Source: Psammoneis japonica
Lineage: Eukaryota
Length of the DNA: 64,000 bases
NCBI GenBank assembly: GCA_008632985.1
Contig: QPGO01000047.1
Location: 186,001-250,000 of the forward strand
Reading direction: 5' to 3'
Shown here: positions 17,490 to 64,000 of the stretch, piece after piece
Numbering within the stretch: the first letter of the stretch is position 1
Layout: every line of letters starts with the position of its first letter
Position numbers and translations under genes: made by a program
Notes under the pieces: model-generated
What the model saw: the letters and a program-made list of their open reading frames with translations, nothing else
Databases searched by the model: none
What the model was told of the DNA's origin: nothing

Positions 17490-18479
17490 TCACACACACT
17501 GCACCCAACAACTAACCCAATTCACCGCATGATTCGGATCGGGACACAAGGAACGTCCCCGACTCTTGATGTCTTGCTCACCCGTGCTCGCACCCAGATC
17601 AAAAGCTCCTCCACGAGTTTTGAACTCTCGTCCACCAATGTTCTGGATGCAAAACAATTTTGGCGTCTGAAACGGCATCGTCTCGCATTTTTCATGCAGA
17701 GCACGAGCCTGAGTTTGAACAAGTGTGACAAAGCTGTTTGTAGATTCTTGAATTGTCGTCGTCATGCATTCTTTCCAAATGCGAGCCTGAATTCGTGCCT
17801 TCATGATGAAGGTCTTCAACGAGTTGTTGATGATCTTGTGCAAGCTCGAAGCGGTTTCACAAACAGTCTTGGTGGTCTTCAAAGAGAGCTCTTGGAATGT
17901 TGTGTGCAACTTCGACGTGGTCTCAATGGCACAGTTTGACAAAATCTTGTTGCAAGTGTCGGAAAACGTCGGGATGGTCATCATTGCGGCGGGCGCGTGC
18001 TCTCGAAGGATTTTTTGAAAACGGCCGGACAAATCAATTTCGTGCTCAAAGGACAAGTCAAAGGAGGACTGGCAGACAGAGCTCGTGGCTTTCAGAGCTT
18101 CAACTGGCATGTCGTCCGCAGGGGTGCAGTTGCGAGTGGCATTGTGAAGAAGGGTGGAGTTGCAGTCCTTGTGGTCAAAAGACACACAATGGATGCTCAA
18201 CCTGATTTGAGCTTCAATGGGCATGCTCGCAGGTGTTTTGTTGCAGAGGATGTTCTGGAGGTGGACAAAGGAGTCGTCATGGCTTTCGATCATCGCAAAC
18301 ATCGTGGTCGTAGCCAAAGCAATGCGAAGCATGTCTTGGCTTGCTTTTGCAGCAATCAATGCATGCTGCACTGTCACATCAAAGACAGCTGAGAGCGGGC
18401 CAGCAAAGGGACCAGCGCTCATGGCACCGGCAGCAATGCCAAGGGAGATGACAGCAAGATTCTTCATGGAAGCAATCAT
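17490..18479 (-). pseudogene. 329-codon tyrosine-free ORF within a TpA-depleted island; probably a mutated gene or element copy
   Basis: No Tyr in 329 aa, enriched in Cys/His; TA nearly absent while CpG is retained. Confidence 0.45.
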
Positions 18480-18870
18480 GGTGATGTCTTGACTGTGTCA
18501 CTTTCCTGTTCAAAGAAAAGATTGTGAGAGAATCGAGAGCAGAAACTGAGGCATCCATCGACAGGAAGCATCAACGTCAAGCACCAGACATGCAGATTTC
18601 TGCATGAAACACACCAAAAACACAACTCCCCCGCATCAATTGTGTCACCCAAGAGAGGCGAAGATGGTGTTGTCACCTTTTACAACATTCAACATTGGTC
18701 TGGACATGAGGTGTGATTCTCCTGAAATGAACTGGGACTGCAGAACAACGGCAGGTTTTGGTGTTTTGCTTTCAGCCGATGTTGTGATGAGGTTAGGGAG
18801 ATTTGGAAGTGACAGCGATTTAGCTCGTGTTTTCTTCGGCAGTGACATCATTTCTTGACACAGCCCCTTT
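17530..18870. other. TpA-depleted tract 1 (CpG retained)
   Basis: Only a handful of TA dinucleotides in about 1.3 kb; the flanking genes have normal TA content. Confidence 0.85.
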
Positions 18871-19485
18871 TTTCTAGTGACCGCCGCGCTTCTTTCGCTT
18901 CGTGGCCCATTCATACAATGCACGAGGTGCAGTCAATGAAACGACCGGCATTATTTCATGGCAGGTTCCCTGCGTCACACTTCTACCAAACTGTACAGGA
19001 ACAGGCTCTAAAACATTGAGCAAGAGGTGACATCAAAGCAAAACCAAGTCAGAATCAACGCCGTGAGCCAACCTACCAGCAGTCCATAGTCCACAATAAC
19101 TGCTTTTGCCAAATCTCGTGGTGTATCCGAATTGACGCCGCTACATCAAATATGACATCATCGTGTTGAAATCGTGGAATGGAGAGTCAACCGACGAACG
19201 TACTAACCACTCTTTCTGCTATTCAACGTGTTGACGTTTCCTAAAGGAAATATCACTGCGAGGAAAACAGCTGTTCGCTCAATAGTCCAATATCTAGCTT
19301 TATTTAGGGCGAGCAAGGGAGAGTTGTAACTAGTATCTTTTTGTGTTGGTCTAGAGGTATAATTGCACTTTTCACCAAGAATCGTAGGAAGGAGATGCAG
19401 TACTGCACGACCCCTGAACGACAAACTCGAGGGAACAACCAGATTCATTGCATTGATCAACAGAAAGTCTAGTTCACGACAACGA

Positions 19486-20478
19486 TCAAAACAGTTTTGC
19501 GTCTTTGCTCTTGTTTTTCTTCCTTCGTTTTGCCAAGGCCTTGTTGATTGCGTTCTGTCCGCCTTTGCGCTTGAGCTGCTCATACTTGAGCTCTGTTGTT
19601 ATTTGTTTCACCTTGTTGCGCTTCGGATAGTAACCCTGCTGGTGGTACTTTTCTTGAACAACTTTCTGAACTTGCTGCTGCAACTCTGTCTGTTGTAGCG
19701 TCGCTCTCTGTTGAATCAATCGTTGCAAAGTCGCTTCATCTTGCTCCAACGTCGTTTGCTGCAATTCAGCTCGATGTGCTTGACGTCGTCGCTGTCCCCG
19801 CCTTCCGGTCAATTTTCGAAGCGCAATCCGTTGTTTAATTCTCTTTATTTCTTCTTGATGCTTTTCTTTCATAAATTCATAGTTATGATTGGTGGATTTT
19901 GTGTTACCATCAGAACTAAATCTCGGATCGCGAGCCTTGTATCTTCCGCTTCCAATCTCCACTCCAATGCCTGATGAGTTCAATAGAGGCGCACCACGCT
20001 GATAAAAATCACGTCGTAACGAGCTTGCCACTGTTGGAGCATGCTTGGACCTCTTCTTCGTTTTTGTCCCCTTTTCTGCAAGGTTCTTGTCCGACTTGTG
20101 CAATTGTTCTCGTGCCTTTTCGATCGCCTCCTTTTTTCGTCGACGTTTGTCGTGTAAAGCCTTTGTTAACTTCATACTACCTTCTGTGCGTCGTTTCTCT
20201 AGTCGTTCCTGCAGAGTCATGTGTTGTTCAACGTCATCTTCATTGTCGTATTCTTCGTCTTGTTGACTGCTACTGCCTCTGCTACTCTCGCTCGCTTCAT
20301 CATCGTCGCTGCTGCTACTACTGTCGAGAGAAACGCTGTCGTCTGACGGAAGGTCTTCCAAGCTGCGAATTTTAGCGACTGCAGAGGGTGATTCCTCTGA
20401 GGAGGTTAATGACACGGAAGAATCATCACCGGAGGAGGACGAAGAGGAGGAGGCTGGCTCTGCCGCTGCGTTGCTCAT
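19486..20478 (-). CDS. RRP36: rRNA biogenesis protein RRP36-like (DUF947)
   Basis: KKRSKHAPT, RDPRF, acidic N-terminus, basic coiled-coil C-terminus. Confidence 0.75.
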   Translation of the reverse strand: MSNAAAEPASSSSSSSGDDSSVSLTSSEESPSAVAKIRSLEDLPSDDSVSLDSSSSSDDDEASESSRGSSSQQDEEYDNEDDVEQHMTLQERLEKRRTEGSMKLTKALHDKRRRKKEAIEKAREQLHKSDKNLAEKGTKTKKRSKHAPTVASSLRRDFYQRGAPLLNSSGIGVEIGSGRYKARDPRFSSDGNTKSTNHNYEFMKEKHQEEIKRIKQRIALRKLTGRRGQRRRQAHRAELQQTTLEQDEATLQRLIQQRATLQQTELQQQVQKVVQEKYHQQGYYPKRNKVKQITTELKYEQLKRKGGQNAINKALAKRRKKNKSKDAKLF

Positions 20479-21286
20479 GGTCGTGACACGCATTCCGCTT
20501 TCTGAGTCTCTCGCCCACTCGCGCTCTATCGGTAAGAGCGCGAGTGCGAGTGGCGAGAGCACTCGTGTCCTGCCTTCGTCCGTCGGCAGCACTTTTTTTC
20601 ACTACAATTCTACGTGATTTTGGAATTTCAATGTAGATATAAGAATCTGTATTGGTACACATTTCAACAAAGTTGATTTGCTTCTCGCCATGATGACAAT
20701 TGAGACCGAATGCAGCGCGATTGATTTTCTTCTCGTCATGATGACAGCCCGACCGTGACTTCGCTTTGCCTTTTGGGGTCTGCAGCCACTGCACCGTTCG
20801 TGACGGGCCACAAGCTGGATGAAGTGTGCTGTAGCGGCGCCGCCACCACAACAGCATCACATCTCCAACAAACCTTGGTGCCAAACATGACGCTGCATCC
20901 ATCCAAGGAACACCCACACGTCGCAAGCAACAAGCGTTCTTCTTCAAGTTCATTGGCATTACAAGCAAAGCAAGAAAGCACCATGTCTGCAACAACAACA
21001 CTCAACACTGCCGAGTGAATGACACAAAATCAAGTCGAGTTGTTTGCCAAGTTCAGAACTCAATTTTGTCTGCCAACTCAATGGATTTGCGGATGATGTC
21101 TGGCGGAGGCCTCTCGTCACGGTCCAAGCTGTGTCGTCGTGATCCTACCCAAAAGTCACGATTTTGTCCGGATCTTGTTTCCAATGCTTTCCAGCACGTC
21201 TGCTGCCGTGATCCTGCCGGCACGAGGCAGCTTGTGCTCCAGTGTCGCTTTTTTCGGCACCCATTTGCCATTCCACCCATGCGAAC

Positions 21287-21830
21287 TTGTCAAGCTCATT
21301 GTTCGTGAACAGTTGGAAGACCTCAAGACTCGTCATTACAAGATCTTGCAGCTGCTGATGGGCACTCTTCACATGCTCAGTTCCCCAGCGCTGATTTTTG
21401 CGAGAAGGTCCTCGATGTTGCCACGGACGTTGCTGATTTTTGTGTCGACGCTCAATCGCGAGGTTGCGGCCGAGACTGCTCAAGAGCAGGACTCTGTCGC
21501 ACCATGGCGGAAGCCAAGAGCATGGCCTGCCAGAACATGCTGATTTGGGCCGTTCACAGATGCGCTGTGCGATTTCCCAATTTTGCCGAGTCGGTTGTTT
21601 TTGCTCTCATGGACTTTTTGGCTGCGGATGGTTCCACGCAGGTTGCTCTTTTTGTCAGAGCCATTGTCGAACAGCACATCGCACTGCGAGGATCCATCTC
21701 GCCCAAGTTGTTGGGTTTCATCAATGACAGTTCTTCGAGCAATGTAGTGTGTGTTTGTCTCTGGATCTTGGGTGAATGCTTGGATGCTGTGCAGAGGAAA
21801 TTGATGTGGAGGCCTTTGAAACTGTTTCCG
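21287..21830 (+). pseudogene. COPB1: Decayed fragment of coatomer beta (COPB1), copy 1
   Basis: VKLIVREQLEDLK..., AVHRCAVRFPNFAESVVFALMDFL, FVRAIVEQ, CLWILGEC; frameshifted. Confidence 0.75.
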
Positions 21831-23229
21831 GAAAGAAGCATGTTTTTTTTTTTAATTGCTTGACACATCCGTCGGCTTGGGATGCGTTGACACTGCCGTG
21901 TGGCTTCTGATGCATTGGAAGGCTCTGCCATCGTTGTTTTCGGTGGATCCTGCAAACTGCTGAGGCAAGTGGTGTCTTCGCAATGCCAACAAAATCATGG
22001 GAACCGCACTGATCGGTTCCCGTCATTGAGTGTGATCAGGTCAATGTTGTCGCTGCGTTGTCAACCATGGAAGCATTTTGCAGCGAATGTGGTCGAAGCA
22101 GATTTGATTTATTTGCAACAGAAGCAGACCGGGGCTCCTCCCTTTGGCCAACTGGGCTTGCTCTTCGACCCATTGCCAAGGAGCCAGGGAAAGTGGACGT
22201 TTTCGCTCCACTTCTAGCTTGCCTTGATCGTGTCAGGGAAGTGCGAAAGTTGCAATGGATCATGCCAAGGGGGAATTCGGGCGACTCATTGCGTCTGGGA
22301 AAGGTGTGGAGGAGATTGAAGGAGAAGTTGACCGTGGAAGGGAGGAAGTGCTCAAGTTGGCGGGACCCGAAGCGCCTGTTGGCATGGGAACGCGAGAAAG
22401 AGTTCTGATGTCTTTCGACATTTCTGACTTTAATTTGTTGACGGATGGTTGGTGTGGCAAACTGCGGTTCAACACGGTGGCTCAGCGATGAGATTCGAAT
22501 CTGATTCGCTTGGCCTTTGCACTTGCCATGAAGCATGACGACAACGTAGAGGAAGGAGATGATTTCTTTTTCGATTGGAAAGCCAGCACGGACATTGTTG
22601 GTCAGGAGAGCCCTTTGCCCTCTTGGCATTCGTACATTTCTGCATTGGCAGGCCCTCCAATGCACTTTGGACAGAGACGTCTCCTCATGGCGGACATGCT
22701 CGATGCAGAAAAAAGCATGTCCATCTGCCGTGCACACTCATTCCAAGAAGCATCAGAACAGAAGGCGGAGGATGCATGCTTGGCGACATCTGTTCAAGGA
22801 TCTTCGCCCCATTGGCCTGCCGCAGCAAAGGAGAAGACACAAAGCAGGCCCAAACAGTGACAGAAAAGACCCACGACCTTGCTCGCTGGGCAATGGATCA
22901 ACCAGAAACTGCTGCAATTCTCGCTTCAAAGGCGATTCGTGCAAAGTGCATTGAAAATGTCCTTCTTGATGCCTCGAGTTTCACAATCAAGTTGCATTCT
23001 TTCCAGCTGCCACACGAAATTTTTCGAGCATTGAGGCTTTTGCTCTCTTGTGGTTTCGATCTGAGGGGACATCTGGGTGGAATGGATCTACTTAGCCTGA
23101 CTGCAACAAGAGCTGCTGCATGGTCAGTTGGTCTTTGTTCTTGACAACTAGCAGCAGAGAGTGGCCACTGTCAATCTGCATTGAACAACAGGCAAGTCCG
23201 CAACTGTCACAGTCTAAAAAGGGTGCCAC

Positions 23230-25230
23230 ACTGGTCCGCCGGTGGTGACGTTCTTGGCCTTCGATCGATTGATTGCGAGTGCAAGCTGTGCCACGAACGA
23301 TGAAAAGTGCGGTTCAAACTAGTTTGCGACGACACGGAGAAGTGTTGGACAAATTTTTGTGTTTGTTTAAAATGTTTGCATTGCACAAGACTCTGCTCAT
23401 CTTGATCGAATGAAAGCAACGATAGATTGCCCAACTGAAATAAAATGGCAAAGTGTCTCCATGCGATTCCGTCTTGAACAGTTTCCTCGGCTTCAATTTT
23501 CCTTTTCCACTTGCCTCTGCTTTCAAAAAGAAGGCGCCTCTTCAGATTTTTGCTTCAGAAACAACTCGTTTTGCATGTCTGTAAAACGAGCATGAGTTTG
23601 AGTGCCACATGGATCTCTTGTTTTTGTTCACATGTTGTTCGAGAACAAAGACATGCTTCGGAATCAGCTTGATGAACATGTGCATCCAATGCAAGCTTGA
23701 ATTCGAGACCCAGCATGATCAATCAAACATTCCTGCACAAAGCACTTCCATGGTCGCACCTCTCATGTTGATGGCAAAGGCCTGCTTTGTCGAAAAAGCG
23801 AGCCAGAAAAACAAGTCACAGCCGCATCCGCATGAAAATGCTCGGCAATCCTCCCCAGTCGAACATCTTGTTGGAATGATCGTCGCAAGATTGCACTGAC
23901 GACATCCCCTCCCCCCATTGAGCACCTTACAATGTGCTGCAATCCGGATCGTCATCAAAGATGTCAATGAAAACCTGAATGTGACCTGAGCCGAGCTGGT
24001 CCATTGGGTGGTCCTCGGTCGTCTGTTTCTCGCGTCCGTCGCCCAATTTCATGTCGTAGAACGGGTCAAGGTCATCGTCAAAACAGACCCTTAAAATCTT
24101 TGCCCTCCATGTCTTGTTTGAATGGCGACAATGCACGCACTGGCTCTTCTTGAATTTGGACGTTGGCTCCTTCCAAGGCTTCTTGACACAGTCGTCGCTG
24201 TGGCCCGACAGATCGTCCTCGGTTGATGGCAAAAACAATCCCGTAACGTGCACGCGAATGAGACAGGCCAGCACCACTGCCAACATGAGACGGAAGAGAA
24301 ATCCCATGAGGCCACTGACATCAAAATTCTTGAAAGCCATGCCGATGTGAAACACGACAACAGCAGTGGTCAAATCGAAGTGCTTCAAGACGGCTGCTGC
24401 GCTCGCAAAGTCGACACGCTTGACACATTCCTTGGACATGCCAACAACGAGTCCCACACACTTCAATGAGATGGTTTTGGACTTGATGGCAATGAAATGG
24501 AGTTGGCTCCAGATGGGAGACCCGATGATGGAGGACCAAATCGATTTGACAGTGACGTTTGGAAACCACTGCTGCTTGATGTGCAAAAAGTCCTCCGTGA
24601 GCCCCAACAACCCCTGGTGCAATCCACAGACAAACGTTGAGAATGTCGTGATGGAAACAACATCGAGATCTTGCAGTGAGGCGCAATGGCCAACCCAAAG
24701 AGCAAAACGAAGCCAATCGCTCGTGCTCTTGCGTTGAGTCACAACTGCAATCAAGTCACAGTGGCTGACATTGATCACGGCGTTCATAAAGAGGACAGAG
24801 GACATCATGGTGATGATGGAGATGCAATGTCTTTGTTGCTTGTACCTTCAAAGAAATTGTGACAGCTTGAATCGATGCCTTTCGAAAGGTGCTCGGACAG
24901 TCTTCAGTGCAAAGACACGTAGAATGTACGAGGAATCCCGGCAAAAAGAAAGTCTTGGCACCGTTTCACCATGCGGCATGCCAATGTCGGGCTGGATAAA
25001 TGCATTGCCTGAAACCGACCTCTAACATCATGGTCACTGCCGGCAAACATGTTGGTGTTGCGATCAATTCGCGGTTGCTTTTTTGACGCTTCGATGGATG
25101 TTTGTGTGGGTGGGTCAGGAAAGTTCAACATTTCCTCTCATGTCCTTTCGTCTCCCAAATGTTTCCCATTTAGCAGAGGCAATTGTAAAGCGATGTCTGG
25201 TTTCGTAGGATGAGCTTTTTATTTAGGAAT
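23230..25230. repeat. TpA-stripped copy of the segment at about 47750-49760 (same orientation)
   Basis: Colinear alignment over about 2 kb, including flanks. Confidence 0.95.
23927..24808 (-). pseudogene. Hypermutated paralog of ORF 48437..49318; frame still open
   Basis: Same 293-aa length; substitutions dominated by Y>C, Y>H, I>V, I>T. Confidence 0.8.
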
Positions 25231-26239
25231 CTTTCTTCGTGCACACTTCATCACAACCTCCTCCAAGGATCAACTGGCAGACTGTCTGAGGCACTTGAAG
25301 CTTTACGTCCTTTGGTCATGGGTTGGTGAGTGTGAAGGGCAATTCCTCTTCATAAATGACAGCTGCCGGAATCAGCTGAAATCGATCTGATTGGTTGATT
25401 GAACTTACAAGACACAATGAGAGGGAGTGTGAAGATTGTCAAATCGTCATTGCGGTCATTGTGACTCGCCGTTACAAAGACGACTCACGTCAGCAAAAAA
25501 AACGTCACTCGCCTCAAGTGATTCAGAAGAGGGGACGTTGAGAGTCTCCTCTCCTCACAATCTCAATCTAGTCGCTGCAACACTGGCACCTGAGAATCGC
25601 CCCAACACCCTTTGCATCTCATTGCACTCTGTTTCTGACAATGCTCTGGATGTTGTGCTGACACGCTCACTGATGAAAAGAGTCATTTTGCCCTCAAACC
25701 AGTGGTGAGAGCGAGTGTGGGGGGTGATGGTTGACTGGCGCCAGCAATGAAAATTGTGCCAGCAATGGGCACCAGCAACAACTTTCCCTGCCAGTGACAT
25801 GTTGATGGCAACCAGGAACAGCATTGCAGATTTTTCATGCCAGTGGTTTTCTCGTGAGCTGTGTGTGCCTTTTTTAAAACAGCAAGAATGCAGCCAGCAG
25901 CTGCGCCCCAAGTCGCAGTGGCTCCACCTGCTCAGCACCCCCGTGCTGCGGCAAGCACTGCATCCACTGCTGATTGCAACAAGAGCCAATCTGTTGGTTG
26001 ATTGATGAGACCCACCTCAATGTTGATGCGAGTCTGTTCAGAATTTTGTGTTGCAAAATTCATGGAGCCCAAGTTCAGAAGTGTGGCCAGTCACTCTCAC
26101 TGCCCCCGTTCCTTGTCCTCTTTTGGGCATTGTTTGACTGTCACATTCTTGAATGGTGCATTGGCAGGAAGCTGCACATTTGGGCACAATGATCAATCCA
26201 ACAGTGCCCGATGGGAAAATCCAGATCAGCTGTCAATCT

Positions 26240-26930
26240 AAAGAACCTTCCATCCATCGAAGCTTCCTGTTGAGTCACAATGACAGGTGTGCTAGCTGAG
26301 ATTGCTTCCAGTTGGACAAGAATCAAAACATGGATCCACCAACTTTTTGTGCAAGGGACCAATGTTGGCAACTTTCATCTTCCATGCAAAGTGTCCTGCA
26401 GCCACCATGGCGATCACTGACAAAAGGACCAATGGCGCAAGGAAGCAGCAGCAAGGTGATTGGTCTCTGACACTCTCCAACAGTCTTGTGAGTGATGCCA
26501 TCAGCCTCACAATGAACCCAATCAAGAGGGTCAGTCATGGTCCAGAGCACAAAAACCACAATTGTCACAACAAAAAGAGGCAACATTGGCCCCGTCATTT
26601 GTTGTGGTCCAACCCTGCAACACTTGAGTTGAAGGACTTTGAAGGACCTGCATCATCTTGGCAAACAAAGCTCCATGTGCCGTGGTGTGTTGCAGTGCAA
26701 TGAGCCATGGAGTTGCCATGCACGCCTTGTTCAGCTGGGTTTTGTTCCAGCCTGCTCTTTCATCAAAGGAAAAGGCGAACATTGCCAAGGCCACCAGCAA
26801 GGAACCATGAGAGACAAACCCACAGCACAGAGAAGGTGCTCAGATGGCTCTGCTCAATGCTGCCAACAAGCAACAGAGGCTCCACAGTGCCATTTTCTGC
26901 ACAAAAGGAGGCTCGCCTGAAGTGTCACTC
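26240..26930 (-). pseudogene. Decayed class C (7tm_3, GABA-B-like) GPCR fragment
   Basis: FDERAGW...ACMATPWL...GALFAKM and VLWTMTDPLDW...VGEC, spread across frames. Confidence 0.6.
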
Positions 26931-27024
26931 TGTTGGTTGCCTTGTTTTCCAGATGGGCAAAAGGCAGTCAGTGATGGTTGTGTTTCCTTGCCACGGACAA
27001 ACACTCCATGCCATCCATGGGTGC

Positions 27025-28320
27025 CCCGCACTGTGAGAATCCATCTCAACAAAATTGTTGGCTTTTGTTGATGGCATTTCTTCCAGCAATGCAGTGCATG
27101 CTTGCCTCTGGGGATCTTGGGTGAATGCTCAAATGCTGTGCGGAGGAAACCAATGTGGAGGCCTTTGAAACCATTTCTGATTGCTTGGATCCAACACCAT
27201 TCTTTGTGATTGCCAAGGAAGACAATCATGAAGAGAAGCACAAAGAAGGAGAGGTGTCCAAAATTGTTTTGAAGAATGTTGTGTCAGCAAACAGCACCAA
27301 TGCAAGACCCAAACCATCTGCTCCAAACAGCCATTTGTCCGGACAAGTCAGACAATGCTCCTCATCTGCGCAAGATGGTGATCGGCAGCTGTGTCTTCAT
27401 GGGAACCATTCTCCAGCTTCCTGCCTGACCAAGTTGTGTTTGAGGACTGTGGATTTTCTCAAATGGATGTGTTGGTGATTGAGAAAATGATGTCCAATGC
27501 ACTGCTTGTCATGTGCAGTGCAGCAAAAATGGCTGAGGCCAGCATTTCAGCTCAGTGTCCTGCTGTTGCTGATTGTTCAGAACACATTGCACCATTCTGC
27601 TGTGCACTGTTGATGGGCTCCAAGGCTTGCATTTTGCTCAAGGATGCTCTCCGCAACAATGGCAAAGCATGTTTGCCCAGTTTTTTAAGACACTCAGGTG
27701 CAAAGAAACCAAAGATGCTTTGGCTGATGATGAGGATGGTGCAGGCAAATTGGCCATGGCACAGCTTGACGGCTTGATTCACTTTTGTCAGCTGTGTTCC
27801 ATGGCCATGCAGGATGGTGATGTTGACCTTGATGATGTCACCATCCTTGATTGTGACATTGTCTTTAAGATTCTGACAGCCATCAATTGTGCTCCCAACA
27901 CACCAGCCAACTTGATGGTGGAGCTTGCCATGATGGGTGACATGAAGACTGTCAAACACCCACAGTGTCAAAACATTGGCCCTCTTGATCGGATCACGTG
28001 TGCTGTGCTTCCATTGAGGTCTCCTCCACCAAGATGGCTCACAAGGCGACACAAGAGAAGGGATGCATCAGCATCTCAGCGACATTTGCATGGGCATTGT
28101 GGATTGCACTTGCCCACAACTTGTGCAGATGAGGCCTTTTCATCCACCATCAGGGCCAAGTTTGAACAGGAAAACAAGGTGGCTGCATTTCATTCTTGAT
28201 TCCCAACTTCTTGTTGGATTTTGTCAACCACATTGTCAAGTTGATCAACATGCATTGCCCCACTCTTCTTGATGTGTCAAAAATGGGAAGCTTCCCCATG
28301 CCACCAACCTCTGTGCAAGA
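27025..28320 (+). pseudogene. COPB1: Decayed coatomer beta (COPB1), copy 2, C-terminal half
   Basis: AQLDGLIHFCQL, DCDIVFKIL, VELAMMGDMKTVKHPQ, AKFEQENKVA, ATNLCAR. Overlaps copy 1 in sequence (27025-27175 vs 21678-21825). Confidence 0.75.
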
Positions 28321-31300
28321 AGGCAAGACAGTGCTTTTCCTTGATGCACTTGCCAACTGTTTCCCAGTTTTGTGCTGGACATTGCACAACATGTGTTTCA
28401 GTCATGAGCACTGTCTGTTGATGCCTGAAGAAAGAAACTTTTCATGAAACCGTCGGCACTGAGAAGTTGCCATTTGACGCATTCAGCACCATTGCAACCA
28501 CAAGATCGAGCGTGCCAGTGTGGGATTGGTCCTCGCTTGTGCTCACACCTTTGGCATGCTGGTGTGTCATGTCTGCTTTCTGATTCAACCTGAATTTGCA
28601 GTTTTGAATCATCAACCAAAACAAGCATGCTTTTGTTGTTTTTGAAGTGTCTTTGACAAAGAAGCTCTCATTGATCTTTCAGTCAAGAAGAAGGGCGGCA
28701 ATGACAGCAATTGGCTGGGTGTGCATGCATTGATCATCGTGAGACACAAGGCATTGCTTGGGAGATTGCATCACTGGCATTCAGAGATCAATGCCTGAAT
28801 CCAGGTGTTGGAACAAACAATTGGAATGGAGAACAAAAAGAGCACTCTGAACTAAAAAACACCACTTCTTCAGCCTTGTGCTGCTGTGTCAACCAGACCT
28901 GGCCTGCTGCGCTCTCTGCTGGGCTTCTGTCCCTTGTTTTGGTTTCCCTGGTTGCTGCCAGAGGGTTGATTGCTTCCTTGCAGCCAACAGTTGATGGCCA
29001 TGAAATGAAAAGGCCTGCAAGGCTGAGCATCTTGAGGATCAAGCATCTGACAACAGATGTGGTTGGCAACAACATTGAAAAGCTGCATGAATGACAAAGT
29101 TCTGTGCATTCATTCTAGACACCATGGAATGTTTTCCTTCATTTGTCACCACAGAGAGGAGCCGCTGTCCTTTCCAATGCATGAACAAAGCCAAACTGTG
29201 ACATCAACACTCACCTGGCCATCTCCATTCTTCCACAATTTGTTCTCCATGTCCAAAATGAGCAAGGGTTTGGTTCACTGACTGCCATGGGTCTTGATCA
29301 AATGCAGAGTTGTTGTTTTGCATTGAAGCACCAATCATGCCTGGCTCACATTTTGTTCCGGAAAACACAAGTGATGGGGTGGGACCCACTGTTGCTTGAA
29401 CCTTGGTGTTTCAACAAAGACTGGCTGCTGCATCGTTTGAAGAGTTGAGTGGTGGAACCAGGGCACAAAGGGTGCATTTCTGTGTTGACAAGTGATGAAG
29501 ATGAAAAGCAACATCAGCAAACATTCTTGAATGAAAAGAAACATGGGCACAAAATTGACTTGTGTTGGGGGTGCATTTGAATGCAGTGCAACACAGTGAG
29601 TGCACCACACAGCATTTTGGATTGCACGACAAACTTGCACAATGTTGGCAAGTCTTTGATGTGCACAAAAGCTGTTTTGTAGTGTGAAATGGAGTCAAGA
29701 GATGCCCCCATGCATGCTCAATTTCCAGGGGTGTAAAACAAGCAGTTCATGAGTCCAGTGGTGACTCACGATCCTCGCGGATCTGCGTGCAACACACACC
29801 CAGCATCAGACAAAACAAAAATGCTGCCCGTTGCTTGACCAAGCCCAAGCAAGCATCTGAAGGAAACAGGATGGGCTGCTTTCTCCTCGTTCTGTGCAAA
29901 AACAGCAACAACATCTGCCAGATCAATGTCTTCATCTGGCATCTCCACATTCTCCAAATCTTGACCCTCTCCTTCCAGAGCAATGCCATGTTGCAACAGC
30001 CCATCATCTGAAGGTTCCTCTGAATCATGCATTGGTTCTTCCACATCTGCTGGATCATTCAAGGCATTGTCAGGTGCCTTGTCTGCTGCTGGAGCGACTT
30101 CTTTGGCAACAGCATTGTTGTCAATGGCAACAGCAGAATCAGCCAAGGGCTCCTCTTTGCACTCTCCTTCCAGCACAATGTTGTGATGCAATGACTTGAC
30201 ATCCACAGGATCCTCTGAATCATCTGTCAGCACATCCAAGGCATTGTCTGGCTCCTCACATGCTTGGACAATTGCGCCCACTAGAGCAACTTCCTCCACT
30301 GCAACAAGATCAGCAGCAGCAGCAGCAATGACAGGATCAGCAATTGGTCCCTCAACCACTGCATCTGCTGGAGTGACAATGACCTTTGACCAGCTCAGCT
30401 GCCACTTGAGTCTGCACCCATCCATGCCAATGATCACACCTTGGATGCATTTGATGCTCACAAATGTGTCAGTCTTGTTTCCACTTGTGCTCAAGCAGCA
30501 CAGCAGCCAATTGCTCATCATTCAGGGTGGGAATGCAATGCAGGCATCAAAGAATGCATTTGGCCACCCCACCAGTGGGGGCTGGAGGAAGGTCGCCAAC
30601 AAAGACATTCTTGATCAGTTCTTCATCGGCAGCCACTCTGATTCCCACTGACAACACTGCCAAGCCAGCCTGTCTTGCTGCTTGTCAATTCTTCTCAAAG
30701 CAAAGTCCAGCTTTGGATCTGACAGCACTGGAATCTTGGTTGCACATTTTGGATCTTGAAGAACTTTTGGAGCAGCCATGCCTGTTGGGATGGCACAGTC
30801 ACAAACACTGTGCACAGGTTCTTCAGCCCGGCAGTGGTCTCCATCTGGTGCTCCTGCGGCAAAAGCATTTGCACTTCAACAACAGCAGCCAAGTGACCAC
30901 AAACCACAAGGGAACACAGATGACACAATGCACAGTCCATGCAACTGATGCAACCACAAGAGCATCCAAAACAGCATTGCCCACTTGATCCCAAAGAAGT
31001 GTGGCAAGGTCATCAATTCCCACAACTTGGCAGCACAAGAAACAGACAGCGGTGCCAATCAACTTCAGGGAGCAGCATGGGAGCACCGCAGCAAATGCAG
31101 CAAGGAAAGCTGTGCAGACTGCAAGGACAAAGGGCACCAGTTCTTCAATCATGCAGCAAATTGTGTCCACGGCAATGCACGAGAAAATCCATGCTTCCCA
31201 AAGCAAACCACTGACGACTCAGCCGTGGTTTTTGGTTTGCCGTGAAACACATGCAGCAGGAGATTGACAAAGAGCATGATCAGTGCATTGTGTGCAATCA

Positions 31301-34300
31301 TGGTGGGGGCAATGGCATCAGAAAAAACAGATTGTCAACAGTGTGCTTCAATGCAAGCAAAACTTGAAATGGTGCAGCAAGCAAGACGTTGCTCATTGTT
31401 TGTGACTGGTGTTGTTCATGAACATGCAGAAACTGCTCTGGAAGAGCCCGCAGAAAAGCCAACAGTCAGCCACACTTTTCAAGTTGTGGTTGGATGTTGT
31501 GGCACATTTGCACTTGGTTGCTTGCAGGCTTCAAGCTGGAAACAAGAATCAGAGGCCAGGAGTGATGTTGGATGCACCCACAATGAATGTCATCCATTTT
31601 AGAGCCGTTCTCTTCAATGAAATTCAGTGTTGCCACAACAGAGCCCATTCTTCTCAGGCCCACCACAAACATGCAGCCTGCAGATTTTGGCGCTTGCTGC
31701 AGTGACACGCCACACCTCAAACTGGTTGAATGATCCTCCCGATCACACCATGGTTGGCTGACAATGAATGCATTCTTGATTGAAAACATCAACAGGGCAA
31801 GACTGTCCTTGTCAATGAGGAGCAGCCTTGCCAAGTCTGAGCTTGACAGAGATGGTCCTACAATCCAACAATGCAAGAGCCAAGCTGAGAACATCTTTGG
31901 ATTTCTTTTTGCTTTGTTGTGGCAACACAAGTGCCAACGGCGCACTCAGAAGCAAGTCACCAAGAAGCACAGTTGATCTTTTCAAACCACACGATTCAAA
32001 TGAAATGACAAATTTGGCAATGCCACACTTGTGGCTGAAAATGAGCATCAATGTGCAACAAAATGTCCTTTGAAGCCCAGATGACAGTGACCACCTGCTC
32101 AGCTGGTTTTTGAAAATTGCAACACCTGTGGAAGGCACAATTGCATGTGTGCAAAGTTCGTTGCTTCTTGTCAGTCAACATTTTCACCAAGGAGTTTTCT
32201 GAGGGGCTTGCAGCAAGCTGCTCCCAAAGAGCCAATTTCAACCTCCAAGACTGGCTCAATTGATGTTCCAAGTTTTGCAGCACTGTCACCTGCTGAGCAG
32301 AAAATGGAGCTGCTTGATTTGCTCCAACAAGCAGAGAGTGCTTTTGCGCTTGCCATTGATGTGCAAGCAACAACGGTCAATGGAGGTGTTTGTCCTGTGC
32401 TGTTTTGAGTCTCTCTCTCTCTCTCTCTCTTGGGCAGAAGATGGTGCATTCACAAGGGCTGCAGAGTTTCTCTGTTTTGTGCAAAAGACCACACAAAGGC
32501 CTGTTCCAGCTCCAGGTGATGCACGCAGGCTCAATTCCCATCACTGGCCCATTTTTGCATTTGGCGCAATGAACTCCTTCAAAATCGGTTTTTTCCAAAA
32601 TTGAATGGCGAGTGTGAGTGTGCACAAAACTGTTGTTTTTTGTGCACACTTGCCTTTCAATTTTCAAAACAATTGAATTTGAGGAATTTAATGTGCTGAA
32701 CTGCACAGAAAACCAGCCTCTTGTTTGATGAATTGCTCATCACCTGGGGCTGGAACAGGCCCACAGACAACAAGGTGCAGCAGCATGCATGCTTTGCTGC
32801 AAGCTTCACCATGACTGTCAAACACACAAAAATGACAGTTGTCAAAGATTGTTGTTGAGGAGCAGTGTGCGCACAACCTCTTGTTTCTCATTCTCCACCA
32901 CCAACAACCCCACGCAGCAGATGCTCCCCACTCTCAACATCTTCATCATTGACAAATGCAAGAGTTCTCACCTGCCTGCATCTCCTTCTCTGTGATTGGA
33001 TTTTTCCATGTGCAGCACATTTCCCATTGCTTGATCAGCTTCTGTTGTCATGGTGGTGCAGAAAGTGATGCATGATGCCATGTGTGACATGTGTGGTGGA
33101 TGCTGGGCTGAACCCGACAATGCCAGATGGGTGAATCAAGTCCAAAATGATGTCGTTCATGCTGAAAGTGTCAAGCCAGGGAAAATTAAATTGAGCCATG
33201 ATGTCCATTGCGCGGACCTTTCCAACTTGGAAGCCATTGACTGATTCTTCATTTGAGCACCAACCACAAGAGGCATGGTCAAGCTTCGAGACTGACAACG
33301 CGGTGCACTGATTTCTGAATTCCAAAGCACCTGCTCTCTGACAACAACTCCACCAGAACATGCCATTTGGGTTGCACACAGTTTTGTTGGCATCACTGTT
33401 TGCAACAAAACTCTGCCACATGTTGTTGTCATGGTGGGTGTGATGCGTGATGCATGAGATGCAGTGGATGATGTGGCACCCACTGAACCCGACAAGGCCA
33501 GATGGATGATTCAAGTCCAACCAATCAACTCAAATCAATTGTGACATCAGCTCGTGCTGAAAAACTTGGCAGGTGCAACCCAACCTTGACGTCCATTGTG
33601 TGGGCCTTTCCTGCTCCAGCAACAAAACAGCCCCAACACTGTGCAAGCTCACGCTTTTCATCCTTGCTTGCCCATCAACATGGAAAGCAACACAAGTTTG
33701 TTCTCACTTCTTGTTTGACAGGTGCTTTGTGAAGCAGGGGGGAAGTCAGTGCTGACCAGTTGCTCTTTTGTCTGTGATTGCATGGAAAGCCAATGGCTGT
33801 GCAAACACTCAACACTGGCACGGCGGGCTGGCGGTTGACGCTGGTGCTTTCTAAAAAGAATGTGTTGGACTGGGATGAGGAGTTTCTGCTTTTGATGCTC
33901 GTTGGGTGTGGCCCACCTGCGCAAATGTAACGTTCTTCTTGTGCATCAATTGATGAATTGATCCAGAATCCTTGAGTCAGGGCTGGGTTGAAAAATGACT
34001 TGCAGCTCCCTGCCCCCCCCCCCCCAACTTTTGCAGCCAAACACCTTGCCAAACCTTTGTGTTTGGACCATCAGAGATGGACATCTCAACCTGTCTGTTC
34101 TTTGTGTTTTTTGCTTGTTTTGCCCTGTCATGCAACAAAAAAAAACTCACAAACTTGTTGTCTCCTTGTGTCTCTCAACAGATTGTCGCATGCAATGGTG
34201 ATGCAGAAGAAGAAGCTCATTGGATGGAGATGCTTTTGAGAACTCGGGAATTGCACTTTTGGACCAAGCTTGCACTTGCATGGATTGGTCTCTTGGAGGA

Positions 34301-37300
34301 ATTGAAGGCTTGTTTGACAGAGTGGGAAACAGTCAAGTTGACACAAAAACAAGCTCTGGCACTTTTCATGGATGCTGTCAAGACACGATTGCATGGGTGA
34401 GGGCCACAAGCAGAAGAATCCCGCCTTGCACTCTGGAAAGTTGAGTCCAGAAATGAAAGCCTGTGTGGATGCCATTGTGAAGGCGATGGGCAAGTCACAG
34501 AACTGTCCAGTTGTCAGTGCCTCTCTGAAAGAGACTGTCACTTGTGGCTTTCATGGAAGCAAGAAGAGTGCACTCTTTGAGATTGAAAGTAAATTGGGTG
34601 TGGACGTGACGAAAGAATCCAAAAACAAGGCTGAGTGAAAAATTCTTTTTCGACCTGGCACTTTGTTTGTGATTCTTTTTTTTTGCAAACACAACAATCC
34701 CGAGTGCAGAAAGTGGAAGTTTGTTTCAGTGCAAGAGATTCATCAATTTTGGTGGAAATTGTCAGAGATGAGTGGAGCTTTAGATTTGCAAGATGAGTGG
34801 CAACTGCAGAGAACTTCCTGCTCCCTCCATCCGGAGGTGAGGTTGTGGGGGGGCATGTGGCAAAGACGGGTGTGCCCATTCCTGTCACAGTGTGTGCTGT
34901 TCTTGGCTGAGCAAGTGCATTGGATGCATTCTTGGAAGCAAGCATTTGCAAAGAAATGCCATCCATTGTTTTCATGCATGTTCTCTTTGTTGCATTCCAC
35001 AGCTTCATGCCCACCTGCTCCTCCCGTGTCTGGCCAGGTGGGGATGATGTGGGGTGTCCCCTGCATTGAAATTGCTTGCATTCAACTGGAGGTCTGCCAC
35101 AATGTCTGCAGCCACGGATTTTGATTGACAGAGTTTTGGGAAAATCTCTCACTCTGTCAGAAGCAGCCACAAGAGTTGCATCCACTCTGGCAGCCACAGC
35201 AAAATGCGTGCTTTTCCTTGGGACGGGCCATCAGGGCTGAATTTTGGAAAGTCTCGATGACACAAGTCCAGCAGAAAGCAACTGTGTCTTCCATCTTTGT
35301 GCAATTGTGCGATTGGCTCCAATGCATTTTTGCACTCCTGCTGCAATGCAATGACCATTTGACTGGCAACTCTGCACATGCAATCGTCTTGCTGCAATCT
35401 AAACCTGTTGAGCATTTCTCCAAAAAAAAAAAACAGCACCATCTTCTTTTGCTGCACTTGTGGCAACTAAAATGTTGCACATGATTGTGATTGCCATGTT
35501 GCAAAAATGGCACTCCTCCAGAAAACTGCTGTCTTTTGCAACACACATGATGTGAAGTGGTCGTGTGACACCCATGTGAGGAACAAGGCTTCTTTCCTGC
35601 AATTGCACTGCATCACGTCCTTGGCATTGTTGTGCTGCAAATGGTTGGGATCGCTTCACATTCCACCACCAGTGTGTGATCTTGAGTGCACTTGTAACTC
35701 TCAGGTAGAATTGCATGCACCAAAGTGCTGTTGTCAGTCCATGTGGCCATGCACTGGTCAAAGATTCATGCATGAACACAGATTGAAGATTTGATGATGA
35801 CACCACAATGACTTTTGAGAGAAGCACTTGTGTTGGGCCCTGTGAGGACTTTTTGCAAGAACCAGCATGGTGCAATCACCACCTTTGTAAAAATGTGCAG
35901 GACATGTGCCAAGAAACTCCAACTTTGCTTTTTGGTTGCTCTGGTTGCAATCAAAACAGCACCAAAAGACAAAAGCAATTCAACACAAAAACTTGCAGAT
36001 CACACTCCAAAATGCATGATGGATTTTTGGGAGAAAAAACTGGGTTGAAATTGATGCATCAGCCTTGTCAATCACAAAGCAAAGTGCACTTAATTGTCCA
36101 TTCGCAACCAAGGCACAACTCATGCAGGAATGTGCAGAAAATGCACTGGGCTCCTCATTCTGCACTTTTTCAATGATCTGGATGTGATCAAGTGCTGCTG
36201 AAAAATCAAAGACTGACATCATGACATTTTCTTGCCAAATGGCTCAAAATCTGCTCGCCAATCTGCTTCTGCTCACCTGAAAACTGCTCATTTGCAAGAA
36301 AACGAGCTCCCAGTGCAAGAAAATCTTGGTGGTCGTGCAAGCTGTTGCACGAGCATGACCCTGTGCAGAACAAGTTGTTTGTGCTTTCCCTCATTCTTTG
36401 GAGCAACATGCAGACTGCATGGAGATTGCCTGCACCGGCAGAAAGCCAGCAGAAGCAAGTGAAAAATCCACTTCATTTTTCTCGCAACATGGCCAAAATC
36501 TGCTTTGCTCACCCAACATGATGTGCCAGTTTTTGAGTTTTTTGGTGGCACTTGATGCAATTGAAATGGTGCCAAAATGCCCAGACCAATTGACCACCGA
36601 CATCACTTTTGCGGAAAATGGCAAACCACATGACAGAGCTTTGGGAGAAAAAACTGGGTTGAAATTGATGGCTGTGTTGAACTTGTCAAACAGAACACAA
36701 AGCACACTGTTTTGCCCAAAAAGCACACTTGCAATTGAAAAGCACACTTGAGACTGAATGCTCCCACACACAGAAATCCACACAGTCATCTGGCACATTG
36801 GAAAAGGTGCACTTGAATTGCACTTGAGCACACTTGTTTGTCTTTCCTCCATTTTTAAAATGGAGTTTCGTGCAACTGCTTCTGTGCTCCAGAGGAAAAG
36901 GCTTGCACTTTGGCATGTGCGCATGGCAGCGCTTGTTGCAGCGATGCAGATGCTGATCCAGCTCTTGCTGGAGGCCCATCCAACCAGCAGCAGCACATGT
37001 TCAACAAGATTTGTGTCGACAAGGCTGACAAGGCAGTTTTTTGATCAAATCTTTCGCCACCACGGGCAAAAGCTCATTTTCATTTTGAGCATTTGCGCCA
37101 TTCCACAGCAGAGCAGCTGTCACAAACAAGGATGAAATGGTGAAAGGGTGCTGTTTGCCATGACATGTGGCGATGCTTCATCGCAGCAATCTCTCAGAAA
37201 AAATGAGAAATGAGGGCCCTGCTTGTGTGTGCACAGTGCGAGCAAGACAGGGTGCAATGGCGCACACCATCCACACCCACAACAAAGAAAGACAAGTGGT

Positions 37301-38349
37301 CAATGCTCCCCACAAGCCTGGTCTGTCCAATTTTTTCCATTTTCTGTCCATGTGCAATTGCACGTGCCCTTGACAAAAAATCTTGCAGTTTGATTTCCAG
37401 ACTTGATTTGTTGCATTTTCAAAATTCTCAGCATTCTCACTGCCAACACCAATCAATCAAGTTGCCACAAAAACAAAAAACAAAAGCAATGGAACAAGAA
37501 CAAAACAAACTGCCAGAATTGCCATTTTGTTGACTCGACACCTGGGTGATCCTTTGAAGGATTCATGTTGTTGTCTGGCAATCACAAGGGCCAGCATGTT
37601 GCTTGTTGCACTGGTTCATCAATGTCTTGCTCACGTGCAAGTGTCAATTCAGGCCTTGTTTGCTGCCGGTGATGCTTCTTTTCAACTTGCAGCCCTGGAC
37701 AAAGATGGACACAAAAATCGGATCACACTTTTGGATCATGTGGCACATTGCATTCTTGATCTTCAAGCACAGCATCAGCAAGCAGAAAATGCACAAGAAG
37801 AGTTGCCATCCTTTTTTGCTTCAGCTCAACTCTTGGATCAGTGCATTGCCAAGAGCTGACAAAACAACAGCAACAGCAAGACAACAAGGACCAAGGTTGC
37901 ACCGCATCCTCCACACATTCTACAACGCAGCGATGCATGGTGCAGTGAGTCTCATTTGCATGCAGCAGTGTGTGTTGTGGTTCAACAATGAGCCTGTGTT
38001 GGCATCAGCCAATTGCAGACCAGCTGACAAATTGAGAAAAGATGCCAAGATCTTTGCATGCTTGCATCTTGTGGCTGTGTTGTCAAGGGTCAAAGCACGC
38101 CAGTGCAGTCAATGGTCAGAAGAGTCAAGGGGCAGGCATTGGGAGAAATGAAAAACTTTGGCAACAATGCCTCATCACAAATCTTTGAGCAACAGTTGCA
38201 GCAGCAAGCAGCAGTGCACGAATGATCCGGGTGCAGTTCATGATGCCTTTGATTTTGACCAAGAACCAGAGCACCCCAGAATTTGTGCCCTGAGTTGGAG
38301 GATTGACCCTGAACAGAGCTTGAGTGACTGACAGAGTCGAAGTGATGGG

Positions 38350-40600: not shown

Positions 40601-41510
40601 TCACTGTGGACCAGTGGGGTTCTTGCTGCACTTTCTGTTTCTGCCATTTGTGGTGCTGTGTGGTGGAAATGTGCACAGGAGGATCTGGCTGGCACCACAA
40701 TTTCTTTAAAAAAGGTGTGCCACACAATGTGTTTCTGTGCTTGCCCACATTTCTGGCACATGATGGGCTTGACAAAAGACAATCAACATGAGCTCAGCAT
40801 CAACAGCAGCACACACTGGGATCCAGCGCACACCTGCTTTTGCATGGCCACATCCATGCTCACAACAAGCCATGTGCAGGGGTCATCATAATTCTGAAAA
40901 TGGAATTTTGAAGTGTTCATGCACAAAAGCATGTCACTCACACAAAAGTTGTCAGGCAAAGTGTCAATGGTTTCAGGGGAAAATGATTCCTTGAGGCCTC
41001 GGCCAAGCGGAGAAGCACGGCAGAAGCACGAGAAAAAAATCGGCCCAAACCCTGATTTTTGTGTTTTTTCTGCATAAATTTCTACATGATTTTTGTGCCA
41101 GTGCACATGGCTTGTGCCAATGCAACCAGAGACCAGTTTTTGTGAGCCTCCTTGTGCTGTCTCAGAGGCAGGTTGAGTGGAATGGCTGAGAGTGAGCGTG
41201 CAAACACTTCGCTGAAGCTCCTCTTTTTGTGCGACACTGTCTGAAATCTTGGCATGTCTTTTGTGCAACTTCTCACCTTTTTAGCTGGGCCTGAGTGGCT
41301 CCATCTGCTGGGTCATCATCTGGCTTCATTGGAGGTTCCAACTCAAGATCAGATGAGTGTGCCCTGAAGTCACCTGAGTCAGTGTGCTCCCATCCCCATG
41401 CAGCTGGCACACACAGTGCAGCACCGTAGTAGTTTCATCGCGGCGTCTGTCGTCCATACCGCGCCACAAAAGATGCCGGCAAGAGAGATAATAAGAGAAA
41501 ACGATGATGG

Positions 41511-49760: not shown

Positions 49761-50410
49761 TTCATACACACTGTTTCTAACCTCTCACTCTTCTCTCACT
49801 GGCGATGCCCCACACCCACGATGGCGATCAATCAATGAGGTGCGGCTGTCATCAGAGCGGCATTGACAATATACTGTAAATGATGTTCGCACACGTCCTG
49901 TTCAGAATGCCAGGGTTGTAGGTGCGTTGCCAATTCCAAGAGACAGGGCGTTCTGACAGTGCTTTTCCGGCAGGAAAACACCTGGAGATGGGTGCATTTC
50001 CAAAAGTCCAATGCAAATTGTGCGCATGTCTGTCCCACACATGCCGAAAGGATTCGTGGGCCTGTGCAATCAACATCATGGCATTGTCTGTTGTCTGACG
50101 ACAGGCTCTCCCGGTGTCTCACGAGATTTGTCTTGCGACGAATGGAAACAAGAGGCAAGTCGAGATCAGTCATCAACTCGACAAATGATGCGTTCAATTT
50201 TGTCTGCATTGGCATCACAGGCACCCCATTCGTTGATGACTGTCCTGTCTTTTGGCTGTTTCTGGAATGAGCTGAAAGGGGACATTTCTGATCTTGTGGA
50301 CCGAAGCTTTTGTGCTTGTTTGAGTGAAAGACTCTCAAGGAACGAGTTTGAGGTCGTTTTCAAGGCAAAAATGGCGACATTGTGCAGTGGAACATGCATT
50401 CTCTGATTTC

Positions 50411-50535
50411 GCTGGCTTGCAGTCCGCCGCTGGTTTTGAGGGACTTGACTCCAATCATCTGTGGAGGCAAAAACGACTGTGCGACAAAACAAAGTCAGTG
50501 TCGAGGTTTGCACAGGAAGCGTGTCATCTGAAGTG
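50411..50535 (+). pseudogene. Decayed fragment of the isochorismatase-TTL gene (homologous to about 45399-45530)
   Basis: Shared strings ctggcttgcagt, gagggacttgactc, acaaagtcagtgtc; the TA sites are converted. Confidence 0.85.
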
Positions 50536-63874: not shown

Positions 63875-64000
63875 TCTTGCCATTCGCGAAGCCGTCTTGG
63901 GTTCAAATCATCTGGACATGGCTGCCAGTTGCAACAACATTGCTTTGGTTCTCGAACATCAGGGCAAGCACGAGGAGGCCTTGATGGAGCATCTCAAGGC
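63875..64000 (+). pseudogene. Decayed kinesin-light-chain-like TPR repeat
   Basis: LAIREAVLGSNHLDMAASCNNIALVLEHQGKHEEALMEH; consensus Tyr positions read as C or H. Confidence 0.7.

What the first reader, a model, noticed from the sequence alone, without database searches (positions are those of the whole stretch)
20670..27000. Two strata: TA loss precedes CpG loss
In 17.5-18.9, 20.7-25.1 and 61.5-64 kb, TA is gone but CpG is still common and homology is easy to read. From about 25.7 kb on, both TA and CG are scarce and ghosts are heavily degraded. Inference: TA conversion is fast and early, and CpG decay (5mC deamination) is slower. Both converge on TG/CA, giving an internal clock with younger material at the tract edges.
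Basis: partly seen in the sequence, partly recalled or inferred. Interest (0 to 1): 0.7.

Follow-up and report, generated by a model that had tools for sequence, protein, structure and literature searches.

The report
Two-speed erasure of TA and CG
In silenced repeats of a diatom-like alga, TA steps are rewritten to TG or CA several times faster than CG steps, so leftover CG roughly tells how long a copy has been under attack, but not how old the sequence is or where it sits in a tract.

Summary
Composition confirmed. TpA o/e is 0.04-0.13 in all named blocks; CpG o/e is 0.74, 0.79 and 0.64 in them and 0.21 beyond a step at about 25.6 kb.

The order holds: 0 of 149 and 0 of 57 CpG-poor windows keep TA, while many TA-erased windows keep CpG.

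The clock holds only in a narrower form:
- CpG loss rises with each copy's own neutral branch length (rho 0.61, 19 segments; 0.71, 8 copies of one element).
- Old copies outside tracts keep both dinucleotides.
- The states form a continuum, and slow TA contexts keep falling as CpG falls, so the two processes overlap in time.
- Edges are not generally younger.

Best reading: silencing starts both processes together; TA-to-TG/CA (preferring TAC/TAT) runs at about 100 times neutral, CpG decay at about 10-35 times. Higher dose rather than longer time is not excluded.

The TpA signature is in print for Bigelowiella natans; coupling to CpG was not found in my searches. This scan noted it before on other DNA of this genome.

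The parts
17507..25247 (.). Duplicated mosaic unit of host-gene pieces (copies on C49 and C181, partial ones on C47, C3, C149). Type of mobile unit not identified.
   Evidence: Continuous 88% match 17507-24366 to C49:105-112 kb and on to 25238; higher contig depth in run X1
17518..18789 (.). TA-erased, CpG partly lost tract (TpA o/e 0.04, CpG 0.74); 28 of 75 ancestral CG converted. The same stretch is TA-intact in other copies.
19486..20598 (-). Intact RRP36-family ORF between two erased tracts, not erased here or in the other copies seen (about 97% identical to the C49:408-415 kb and C142 copies)
   Evidence: PF06102 E 5e-19
20658..25600 (.). Shallow block: TpA o/e 0.13, CpG 0.79; 24 of 111 ancestral CG converted; neutral branch 0.7% transversions, 1.0% non-YpR transitions. 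Also erased in other copies that have no deep tract beside them.
21043..21835 (+). Beta-COP ghost 1 (two rearranged pieces of the gene on C88): 96% of parental TA lost, 13 of 35 CG converted, 8.6% neutral distance to parent
21846..23098 (+). Fragment of an ankyrin/RING gene (1526-aa open frame on C136)
23264..25247 (.). TA-erased copy of 47769-49772; TA conversions largely independent between copies
   Evidence: 83% identity
25601..41420 (.). Deep tract: TpA o/e 0.03, CpG 0.21; 192 of 232 ancestral CG converted; neutral branch 1.7% transversions, 3.2% non-YpR transitions. Step-like left edge, sharp right edge with no young fringe.
27021..28862 (+). Beta-COP ghost 2: all parental TA in the coding part lost, 53 of 56 CG converted, 7.4% neutral distance to the same parent
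29071..31826 (.). Body of a multi-copy element that often lies beside beta-COP pieces; 31 copies of its first 0.84 kb used for the tree test. Class not identified.
   Evidence: no Pfam, Atlas or homologue hit for a 748-aa ORF of an intact copy
33308..34511 (+). Ghost overlapping an ORF with an ADP-ribosyltransferase-family domain on C77; 32 of 40 CG converted
35680..36850 (.). Small repeated element split by the next part; 22 of 24 CG converted at only 2.9% neutral branch, the clearest departure from a simple clock
36190..36554 (.). Inner, later-inserted small element; 10 of 13 CG converted, 16 of 16 TA converted
36973..37986 (+). Ghost of a P-loop ATPase gene (C77)
40874..41113 (.). Small repeat near the right end of the deep tract; 3 of 7 to 5 of 9 CG converted
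47769..49772 (.). TA-intact paralogue of 23264-25247, used as the before state
49923..54544 (.). Intermediate tract: TpA o/e 0.055, CpG 0.48; 45 of 88 CG converted
61476..64000 (.). TA-erased tract (CpG 0.64) that runs about 6.5 kb past the window; holds a ghost (61642-63324) of a SNF2-type helicase gene on C1

Best explanation
Repeated or duplicated DNA enters a silenced state copy by copy. From then on two mutation processes run side by side at different speeds. One changes the A of TpA to G on either strand (TA to TG or CA), at roughly 100 times the neutral transition rate, fastest in TAC and TAT and slowest in TAA and TAG; an adenine deaminase of the TadA/ADAT type is the likeliest agent (inferred). 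The other changes CG to TG or CA at roughly 10-35 times neutral, most simply by deamination of methylated C (inferred). TA therefore saturates while most CG remain. CG left over is a rough measure of time spent in the silenced state. It does not measure the age of the sequence or its position in a tract. The 20.7-25.6 kb block is a separately and more recently targeted unit that happens to abut an older tract.
For: Shown: direction against intact copies. Order: 0 of 149 CpG-poor 500-bp windows have TpA o/e above 0.35, among 975 windows; 0 of 57 among 233 windows of an unselected 120 kb. In one element, 8 erased copies run from TA 14/26, CG 4/33 at 0.4% neutral branch to TA 16/18, CG 19/24 at 3.1% (rho 0.71, p 0.047), while 23 intact copies have TA 21/499 and CG 23/693 converted. 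CG hazard over neutral non-YpR transitions is 35 (19-77) in 6 shallow copies, 35 (18-76) in 2 deep copies and 2.2 in intact copies. Window segments: rho 0.61, p 0.005, n=19. CG loss already exceeds background in the earliest copy (4/33 vs 23/693, p 0.03), and slow YTAR sites fall from 0.52 to 0.17 of intact level as CpG falls, so the processes overlap. TAY strand mutated 112 times against 41 for the TAR strand.
Against: The link to neutral divergence depends on the outgroups: rho 0.38 (p 0.11) with the longest branch per segment, median 0.46 with random picks; 11 of 19 segments come from one tract. Two pairs among the 8 erased copies are sister copies. The 35.7-36.85 kb element has 22 of 24 CG converted at 2.9% neutral, against 38 of 68 at 4.0% for 52.4-54.3 kb (p 0.001). 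Neutral branches were minimised over outgroup pairs, which inflates the 35-fold figure; block values counts are 9-37. Longer neutral branches could reflect a higher local mutation rate instead of more time. No methylation data; no enzyme shown.
Confidence: 0.6

Rival explanations
1. Dose, not time. Tracts differ in how strongly they are silenced. Deep tracts have higher rates for TA, CG and all other changes, so CpG loss marks intensity and is no clock.
For: Young-looking nested elements in the deep tract have lost most CG (22/24 and 10/13 at 2.3-2.9% neutral). The state changes in steps. CpG o/e is 0.29 more than 4 kb from a tract edge against about 0.5 nearer. 17.5-18.8 and 23.3-25.2 kb lie in one duplicated unit yet differ (28/75 vs 17/85, p 0.02).
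Against: The CG-to-neutral ratio is the same in shallow and deep copies of one element, so a dose model must raise transversions and non-YpR transitions in step. Tract length does not predict CpG (rho -0.13, n=23).
Confidence: 0.2
2. Strict sequence, the first reader's strata: a short burst removes TA when DNA arrives; methylation and CpG decay follow later and alone.
For: L-shaped joint distribution. In B. natans the TpA process was active in only 11 of 15 lines, so it can be episodic (10.64898/2026.01.13.699255).
Against: Half-erased copies exist and already show CG loss (L164). One-TAY and YTAR sites keep falling across all five CpG bins. Tract-level TpA and CpG o/e co-vary (rho 0.75, 47 of 54 tracts).
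Confidence: 0.08
3. One enzyme system drives both: CG loss is enzymatic cytosine deamination by the same or a partner deaminase, not passive 5mC decay.
For: CG decay is confined to TA-erased copies (2.2 times neutral outside, up to 35 inside). Trypanosome ADAT2 deaminates C in single-stranded DNA in vitro (PMC10661471, passage). An Emiliania huxleyi mutation-accumulation study found no excess of mutations at CpG (PMC7486954, passage).
Against: The two targets differ in geometry (5' T for A, 3' G for C). CG loss shows no clear flanking preference. The genome has 27 C5-methyltransferase domain matches, one DNMT3-like, and transposons are CG-methylated in diatoms (PMC9998398, passages). 10-35 times overlaps the recalled 10-15 times of passive decay in mammals.
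Confidence: 0.1
4. Artefact or selection: assembly error, or ordinary codon and base bias.
For: TpA is mildly under-represented in the genes too (o/e about 0.6).
Against: Run X1 contigs match base for base. GC content is flat at 0.47-0.52. Copies convert the same ancestral TA to different products (win vs L131 23 same, 12 different). Context and strand rules hold.
Confidence: 0.02

Closest known systems
TpA hypermutation of integrated NCLDV and virophage DNA in Bigelowiella natans (Mettrop et al., bioRxiv 10.64898/2026.01.13.699255; parts 1-3 of 5 read, whole text searched for terms, supplements closed)
   Same: TpA to TpG/CpA on both strands, regional, sparing neighbouring genes; TpA-poor, TpG/CpA-rich clusters; adenine deaminase proposed, not shown.
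   Different: Here targets are duplicated host-gene pieces and repeats, erasure is near complete, and CpG decays in the same tracts. The paper's main text has no occurrence of 'CpG', 'diatom' or 'trinucleotide'. There the rate was measured per generation; here it is inferred from copies.
Decay of methylated CpG used as a clock (primates: bioRxiv 10.1101/036434, passages read)
   Same: CG to TG/CA, strand-symmetric, rising with neutral divergence.
   Different: Here it runs only in TA-erased copies, reaches about 85% by 2-4% neutral divergence, and so dates silencing over a short range. Methylation not shown.
Repeat-induced point mutation (RIP) of ascomycetes (features recalled)
   Same: Duplicated DNA is hit by dinucleotide-specific transitions copy by copy, with sharp tract borders.
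   Different: RIP makes TpA from CpA; this process destroys TpA and makes CpA. Many repeat copies here are untouched.
TadA/ADAT2 adenosine deaminases and TadA-derived base editors (PMC8052359, PMC10661471; passages read)
   Same: A to G change with a 5' T/U and a preferred 3' C: UACG(A) for TadA editors on RNA, TAC > TAT > TAA, TAG here.
   Different: No preference for G at the next position here (TACA 32/36, TACG 22/25, TACC 19/25, TACT 16/29). No enzyme is linked to the tracts.

Membership tests
B. natans-type TpA hypermutation | A:T to G:C transitions concentrated at TpA, both strands | tested here: met
   273 of 318 ancestral TA converted to TG or CA in 15 segments; AT-to-GC changes at other sites not in excess over GC-to-AT (66:68 in the deep ghost)
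B. natans-type TpA hypermutation | Regional, neighbouring genes spared | tested here: met
B. natans-type TpA hypermutation | Target of viral origin | tested here: not met
   Identified contents are host-gene pieces and repeats; not every part was identified, and no virus library was searched
B. natans-type TpA hypermutation | De novo rate about 1000 times background | not testable with these tools
   Indirect lower-bound estimate about 126 times neutral non-YpR transitions
B. natans-type TpA hypermutation | ADAT2-like candidate present | tested here: inconclusive
   ADAT2-like and TadA-like ORFs exist but these are housekeeping families
5mC deamination clock | CG to TG/CA, symmetric | tested here: met
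   41 TG and 36 CA in the deep beta-COP ghost
5mC deamination clock | Loss rises with time, read as neutral divergence | tested here: inconclusive
   Positive on terminal branches, absent against the parent gene; time and dose not separated
5mC deamination clock | CG sites are methylated | not testable with these tools
   No methylation data; DNMT3-like gene present, DNMT5 not identified
Fungal RIP | C to T at CpA, gain of TpA | tested here: not met
   TpA lost, CpA gained
Fungal RIP | Triggered by duplication in the sexual cycle | not testable with these tools
   23 of 31 copies of one repeat are untouched

The most novel reading that the evidence does not exclude
A silencing-coupled genome defence in a diatom-like alga uses a TadA/ADAT-type deaminase on DNA (TAC > TAT > TAR) and drives CpG loss actively as well. 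Three nested rates (fast TA, CG, slow TA) would then date, for every repeat copy, when it was first recognised.
Probability: 0.25. Interest if true: 0.85.

Novelty: new variant of a known kind. Interest (0 to 1): 0.55.

Why it matters
A DNA-level A-to-G mutator has been measured in one rhizarian alga. A near-saturated version on repeats and duplicated genes in another lineage would make it a wider form of genome defence. Its coupling to CpG decay gives a short-range marker of when each copy was silenced. Raw identity misdates repeats in this genome: copies 80-88% identical can differ by only 1-3% at neutral sites. The TAC/TAT preference is a testable constraint on the enzyme.

Tried and rejected
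About eight of the 15 are copies of one unit or its close relatives.
- Head-to-head on the 156 parental bases shared by the two in-window ghosts: uninformative, both keep 1 of 8 CG.
- Tract length as a predictor of CpG loss: none.
- Strand-coordinated runs of TA conversion: none (113 same, 129 different).
- Flanking preference for CG loss: none clear.
- TACG preference: not seen.
- Wholly inherited erasure: rejected for 23.3-25.2 kb, where outcomes differ between copies; partly shared for 21.1-23.1 kb.
- Class of the repeats: no homologue, Pfam or Atlas hit for the 306-aa and 748-aa ORFs.
- Organism: one search gave only bacterial metA hits; 'diatom-like' is taken from earlier scan notes and is not established here.
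- No RNA holder listed. Allelic differences could not be told from paralogues in run contigs.
- DNMT5 not identified: 2 of 27 methyltransferase matches examined.
- Literature: searches found no report of TpA erasure in a diatom, or of coupled TpA and CpG loss. Subscription papers and bioRxiv supplements were not visible; the mutation table of Mettrop et al. may hold flanking-context data.
Full report
Setting. The window is G000:C49:186001-250000 of a 91-Mb eukaryotic assembly in 597 contigs. It holds ordinary genes and TA-poor tracts. 'Diatom-like' comes from earlier scan notes; I did not establish it.

Observation. TpA and CpG o/e are 0.036 and 0.74 at 17518-18789, 0.126 and 0.79 at 20658-25600, 0.032 and 0.21 at 25601-41400, 0.055 and 0.48 at 49923-54544, and 0.068 and 0.64 at 61476-64000. 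Genic DNA has 0.55-0.61 and 0.99-1.09; GC is flat. TG+CA rises from about 1.15 to 1.46-1.86. The CpG drop is a step near 25.6 kb. The deep state ends sharply at about 41.42 kb. Contigs of run X1 reproduce the deep tract without differences (possibly the source sample).

Anatomy. 17.5-25.2 kb is one duplicated unit with copies elsewhere. It contains an intact RRP36-family gene, a beta-COP fragment, an ankyrin/RING fragment and an erased copy of 47.8-49.8 kb. Erasure borders differ between copies: 17.5-18.8 kb is TA-intact in L128, L059, L063, L064 and L066. The 21-24.5 kb part is erased in copies that have no deep tract next to them. The shallow block is therefore a target of its own and not a fringe of the deep tract. 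The deep tract holds a second beta-COP ghost, a multi-copy element, further gene ghosts and small nested repeats.

Direction and order. Against intact copies both TA and CG go to TG or CA. Of 975 500-bp windows from the window and region-fetched loci, 149 have CpG o/e under 0.35; 148 of these have TpA under 0.15 and none is above 0.35. The 388 TA-erased windows split 148, 164 and 76 over low, middle and high CpG. Those loci were chosen by homology, so I repeated the count on an unselected 120 kb: 0 of 57 CpG-poor windows among 233 keep TA. The middle class is large, so the states are a continuum.

The clock, test 1 (as proposed). I counted neutral change as transversions plus transitions outside pyrimidine-purine steps, which neither process can reach. 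Against the intact beta-COP gene, 15 erased copies show no relation between CG conversion and neutral distance (rho 0.14, p 0.61). The two in-window ghosts have 13 of 35 and 53 of 56 CG converted (p 3e-9) at 8.6% and 7.4%. Distance to the parent is dominated by history that the copies share.

The clock, test 2 (each copy's own branch). With two outgroups per segment (48 triplets), a hand-picked set of 16 segments gave rho 0.81; it left out 21.1-21.8 and 51.1-52.2 kb and merged two halves of one element. A fixed rule (shortest branch, all 19 segments) gave 0.61, p 0.005; the longest branch gave 0.38, p 0.11; random picks gave a median of 0.46. I take 0.61 as the fair figure, and 11 of the 19 segments lie in one tract. 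Two segments (22.0 and 61.6 kb) use an outgroup that is itself erased, which lowers their CG counts. Pooled, the deep tract has 192 of 232 CG converted with 1.7% transversions and 3.2% non-YpR transitions; the 20.7-25.6 block has 24 of 111 with 0.7% and 1.0%. In 31 copies of one element (the 31 of 32 hits at least 500 bases long), 8 erased copies run from TA 14/26 and CG 4/33 at 0.4% to TA 16/18 and CG 19/24 at 3.1% (rho 0.71, p 0.047). The 23 intact copies have 21/499 TA and 23/693 CG converted, including two with 2.1% and 3.3% branches. Age alone therefore does nothing; the clock starts when a copy enters the erased state.

Rates. CG hazard per C is 35 times the neutral non-YpR transition rate in 6 shallow copies (19-77), 35 in 2 deep copies (18-76) and 2.2 in intact copies. 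TA is about 126 times, a lower bound because of saturation. Outgroup pairs were chosen to minimise the branch, which inflates these ratios; time spent before silencing deflates them. Block values worked out by hand are 9-37. In the least-erased copy TA runs about 6 times faster than CG (hand calculation). Passive decay in mammals is about 10-15 times (recalled), so passive 5mC deamination is not excluded.

Concurrent, not sequential. CG loss is above background in the half-erased copy (p 0.03). TA sites differ by context. Where one strand reads TAY and the other TAR, the TAY strand was mutated 112 times against 41 (p 8e-9); TAC beat TAT 34 to 14. In 229 erased 1-kb windows chosen on the fast class only, slow YTAR sites stand at 0.52, 0.43, 0.31, 0.27 and 0.17 of the intact level from the highest to the lowest CpG bin. 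TA erasure thus continues while CG decays; 'fast and early' is true of TAC and TAT. A word search of the scan's notes for this context rule returned nothing.

Against the clock. The 35.7-36.85 kb element has 22 of 24 CG converted at 2.9% neutral, against 38 of 68 at 4.0% for 52.4-54.3 kb (p 0.001). Two parts of one duplicated unit differ (p 0.02). More neutral change could come from a higher local rate. These data cannot separate time from dose.

Edges. But deep DNA abuts intact DNA directly at 41.42 kb, at both ends of the C88 tract and in several others, and tract length does not predict CpG (rho -0.13, 23 closed tracts).

Mechanism. Shown: spectrum, context, order, confinement to some copies. 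Inferred: adenine deamination on DNA and 5mC deamination. The genome has ADAT2-like and TadA-like ORFs and a DNMT3-like ORF, which shows only that candidates exist. TadA-derived editors favour UACG(A) (PMC8052359, passages); the TAC preference here fits, the following G does not.

Prior knowledge. Mettrop et al. (10.64898/2026.01.13.699255) measured TpA-only A:T to G:C hypermutation in B. natans viral inserts and do not mention CpG. Diatom transposons are CG-methylated through DNMT5 (PMC9998398, passages). My searches found no diatom report. Earlier scan notes describe the erasure and the TA-before-CG order on other pieces of this genome; they led me to the preprint and are not independent support.

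Verdict. A real two-speed process; a new variant of a known kind. The strata, the edge rule and the clock against the parent need to be replaced by a rough clock of time in the silenced state.

Noticed in passing
window 8352-9344 (-): Uninterrupted metA-type ORF whose best 120 hits shown are 66-71% identical, the named ones Rhodobacteraceae; probably horizontally acquired, yet not TA-erased.
   Followed up: partly
window 19486-20598; copies in L128, L130, L132, L055: An RRP36-family gene sits un-erased inside a multi-copy unit whose flanks are erased; repetition alone does not trigger erasure.
   Followed up: partly
G000, 16 matches to PF07718: Beta-COP pieces have been spread to many loci beside a multi-copy element of unknown class with a 748-aa ORF lacking any hit.
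   Followed up: partly
window 1-941 and 44387-45315: Inverted duplicate pair, 95% identical, TA-intact.
   Followed up: no
window 35695, 35706: Two TA steps survive at the left end of the small element in otherwise erased DNA.
   Followed up: no
window 24885-25132 and 25915-26791 vs L124 (C76): These two stretches lie about 75 bases apart in a deep tract on C76, so the 25.6-kb step may mark the junction of a newer insertion with an older relative.
   Followed up: no
G000 C297, C301, C10, C28: Several C5-methyltransferase domains occur in clusters, some with stops inside; possibly mobile or virus-derived.
   Followed up: no
L040 5-7.5 kb, L052, L126, C1:516-517.5 kb: 500-bp windows with neither TA nor CG (0/0), probably simple repeats or masked runs; those failing the base-count filter were left out.
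   Followed up: no
window 23264-25240 vs L131: CG sites lost in both copies (8; about 3 expected) go to the same product only half the time, hinting at site-specific hot spots.
   Followed up: no
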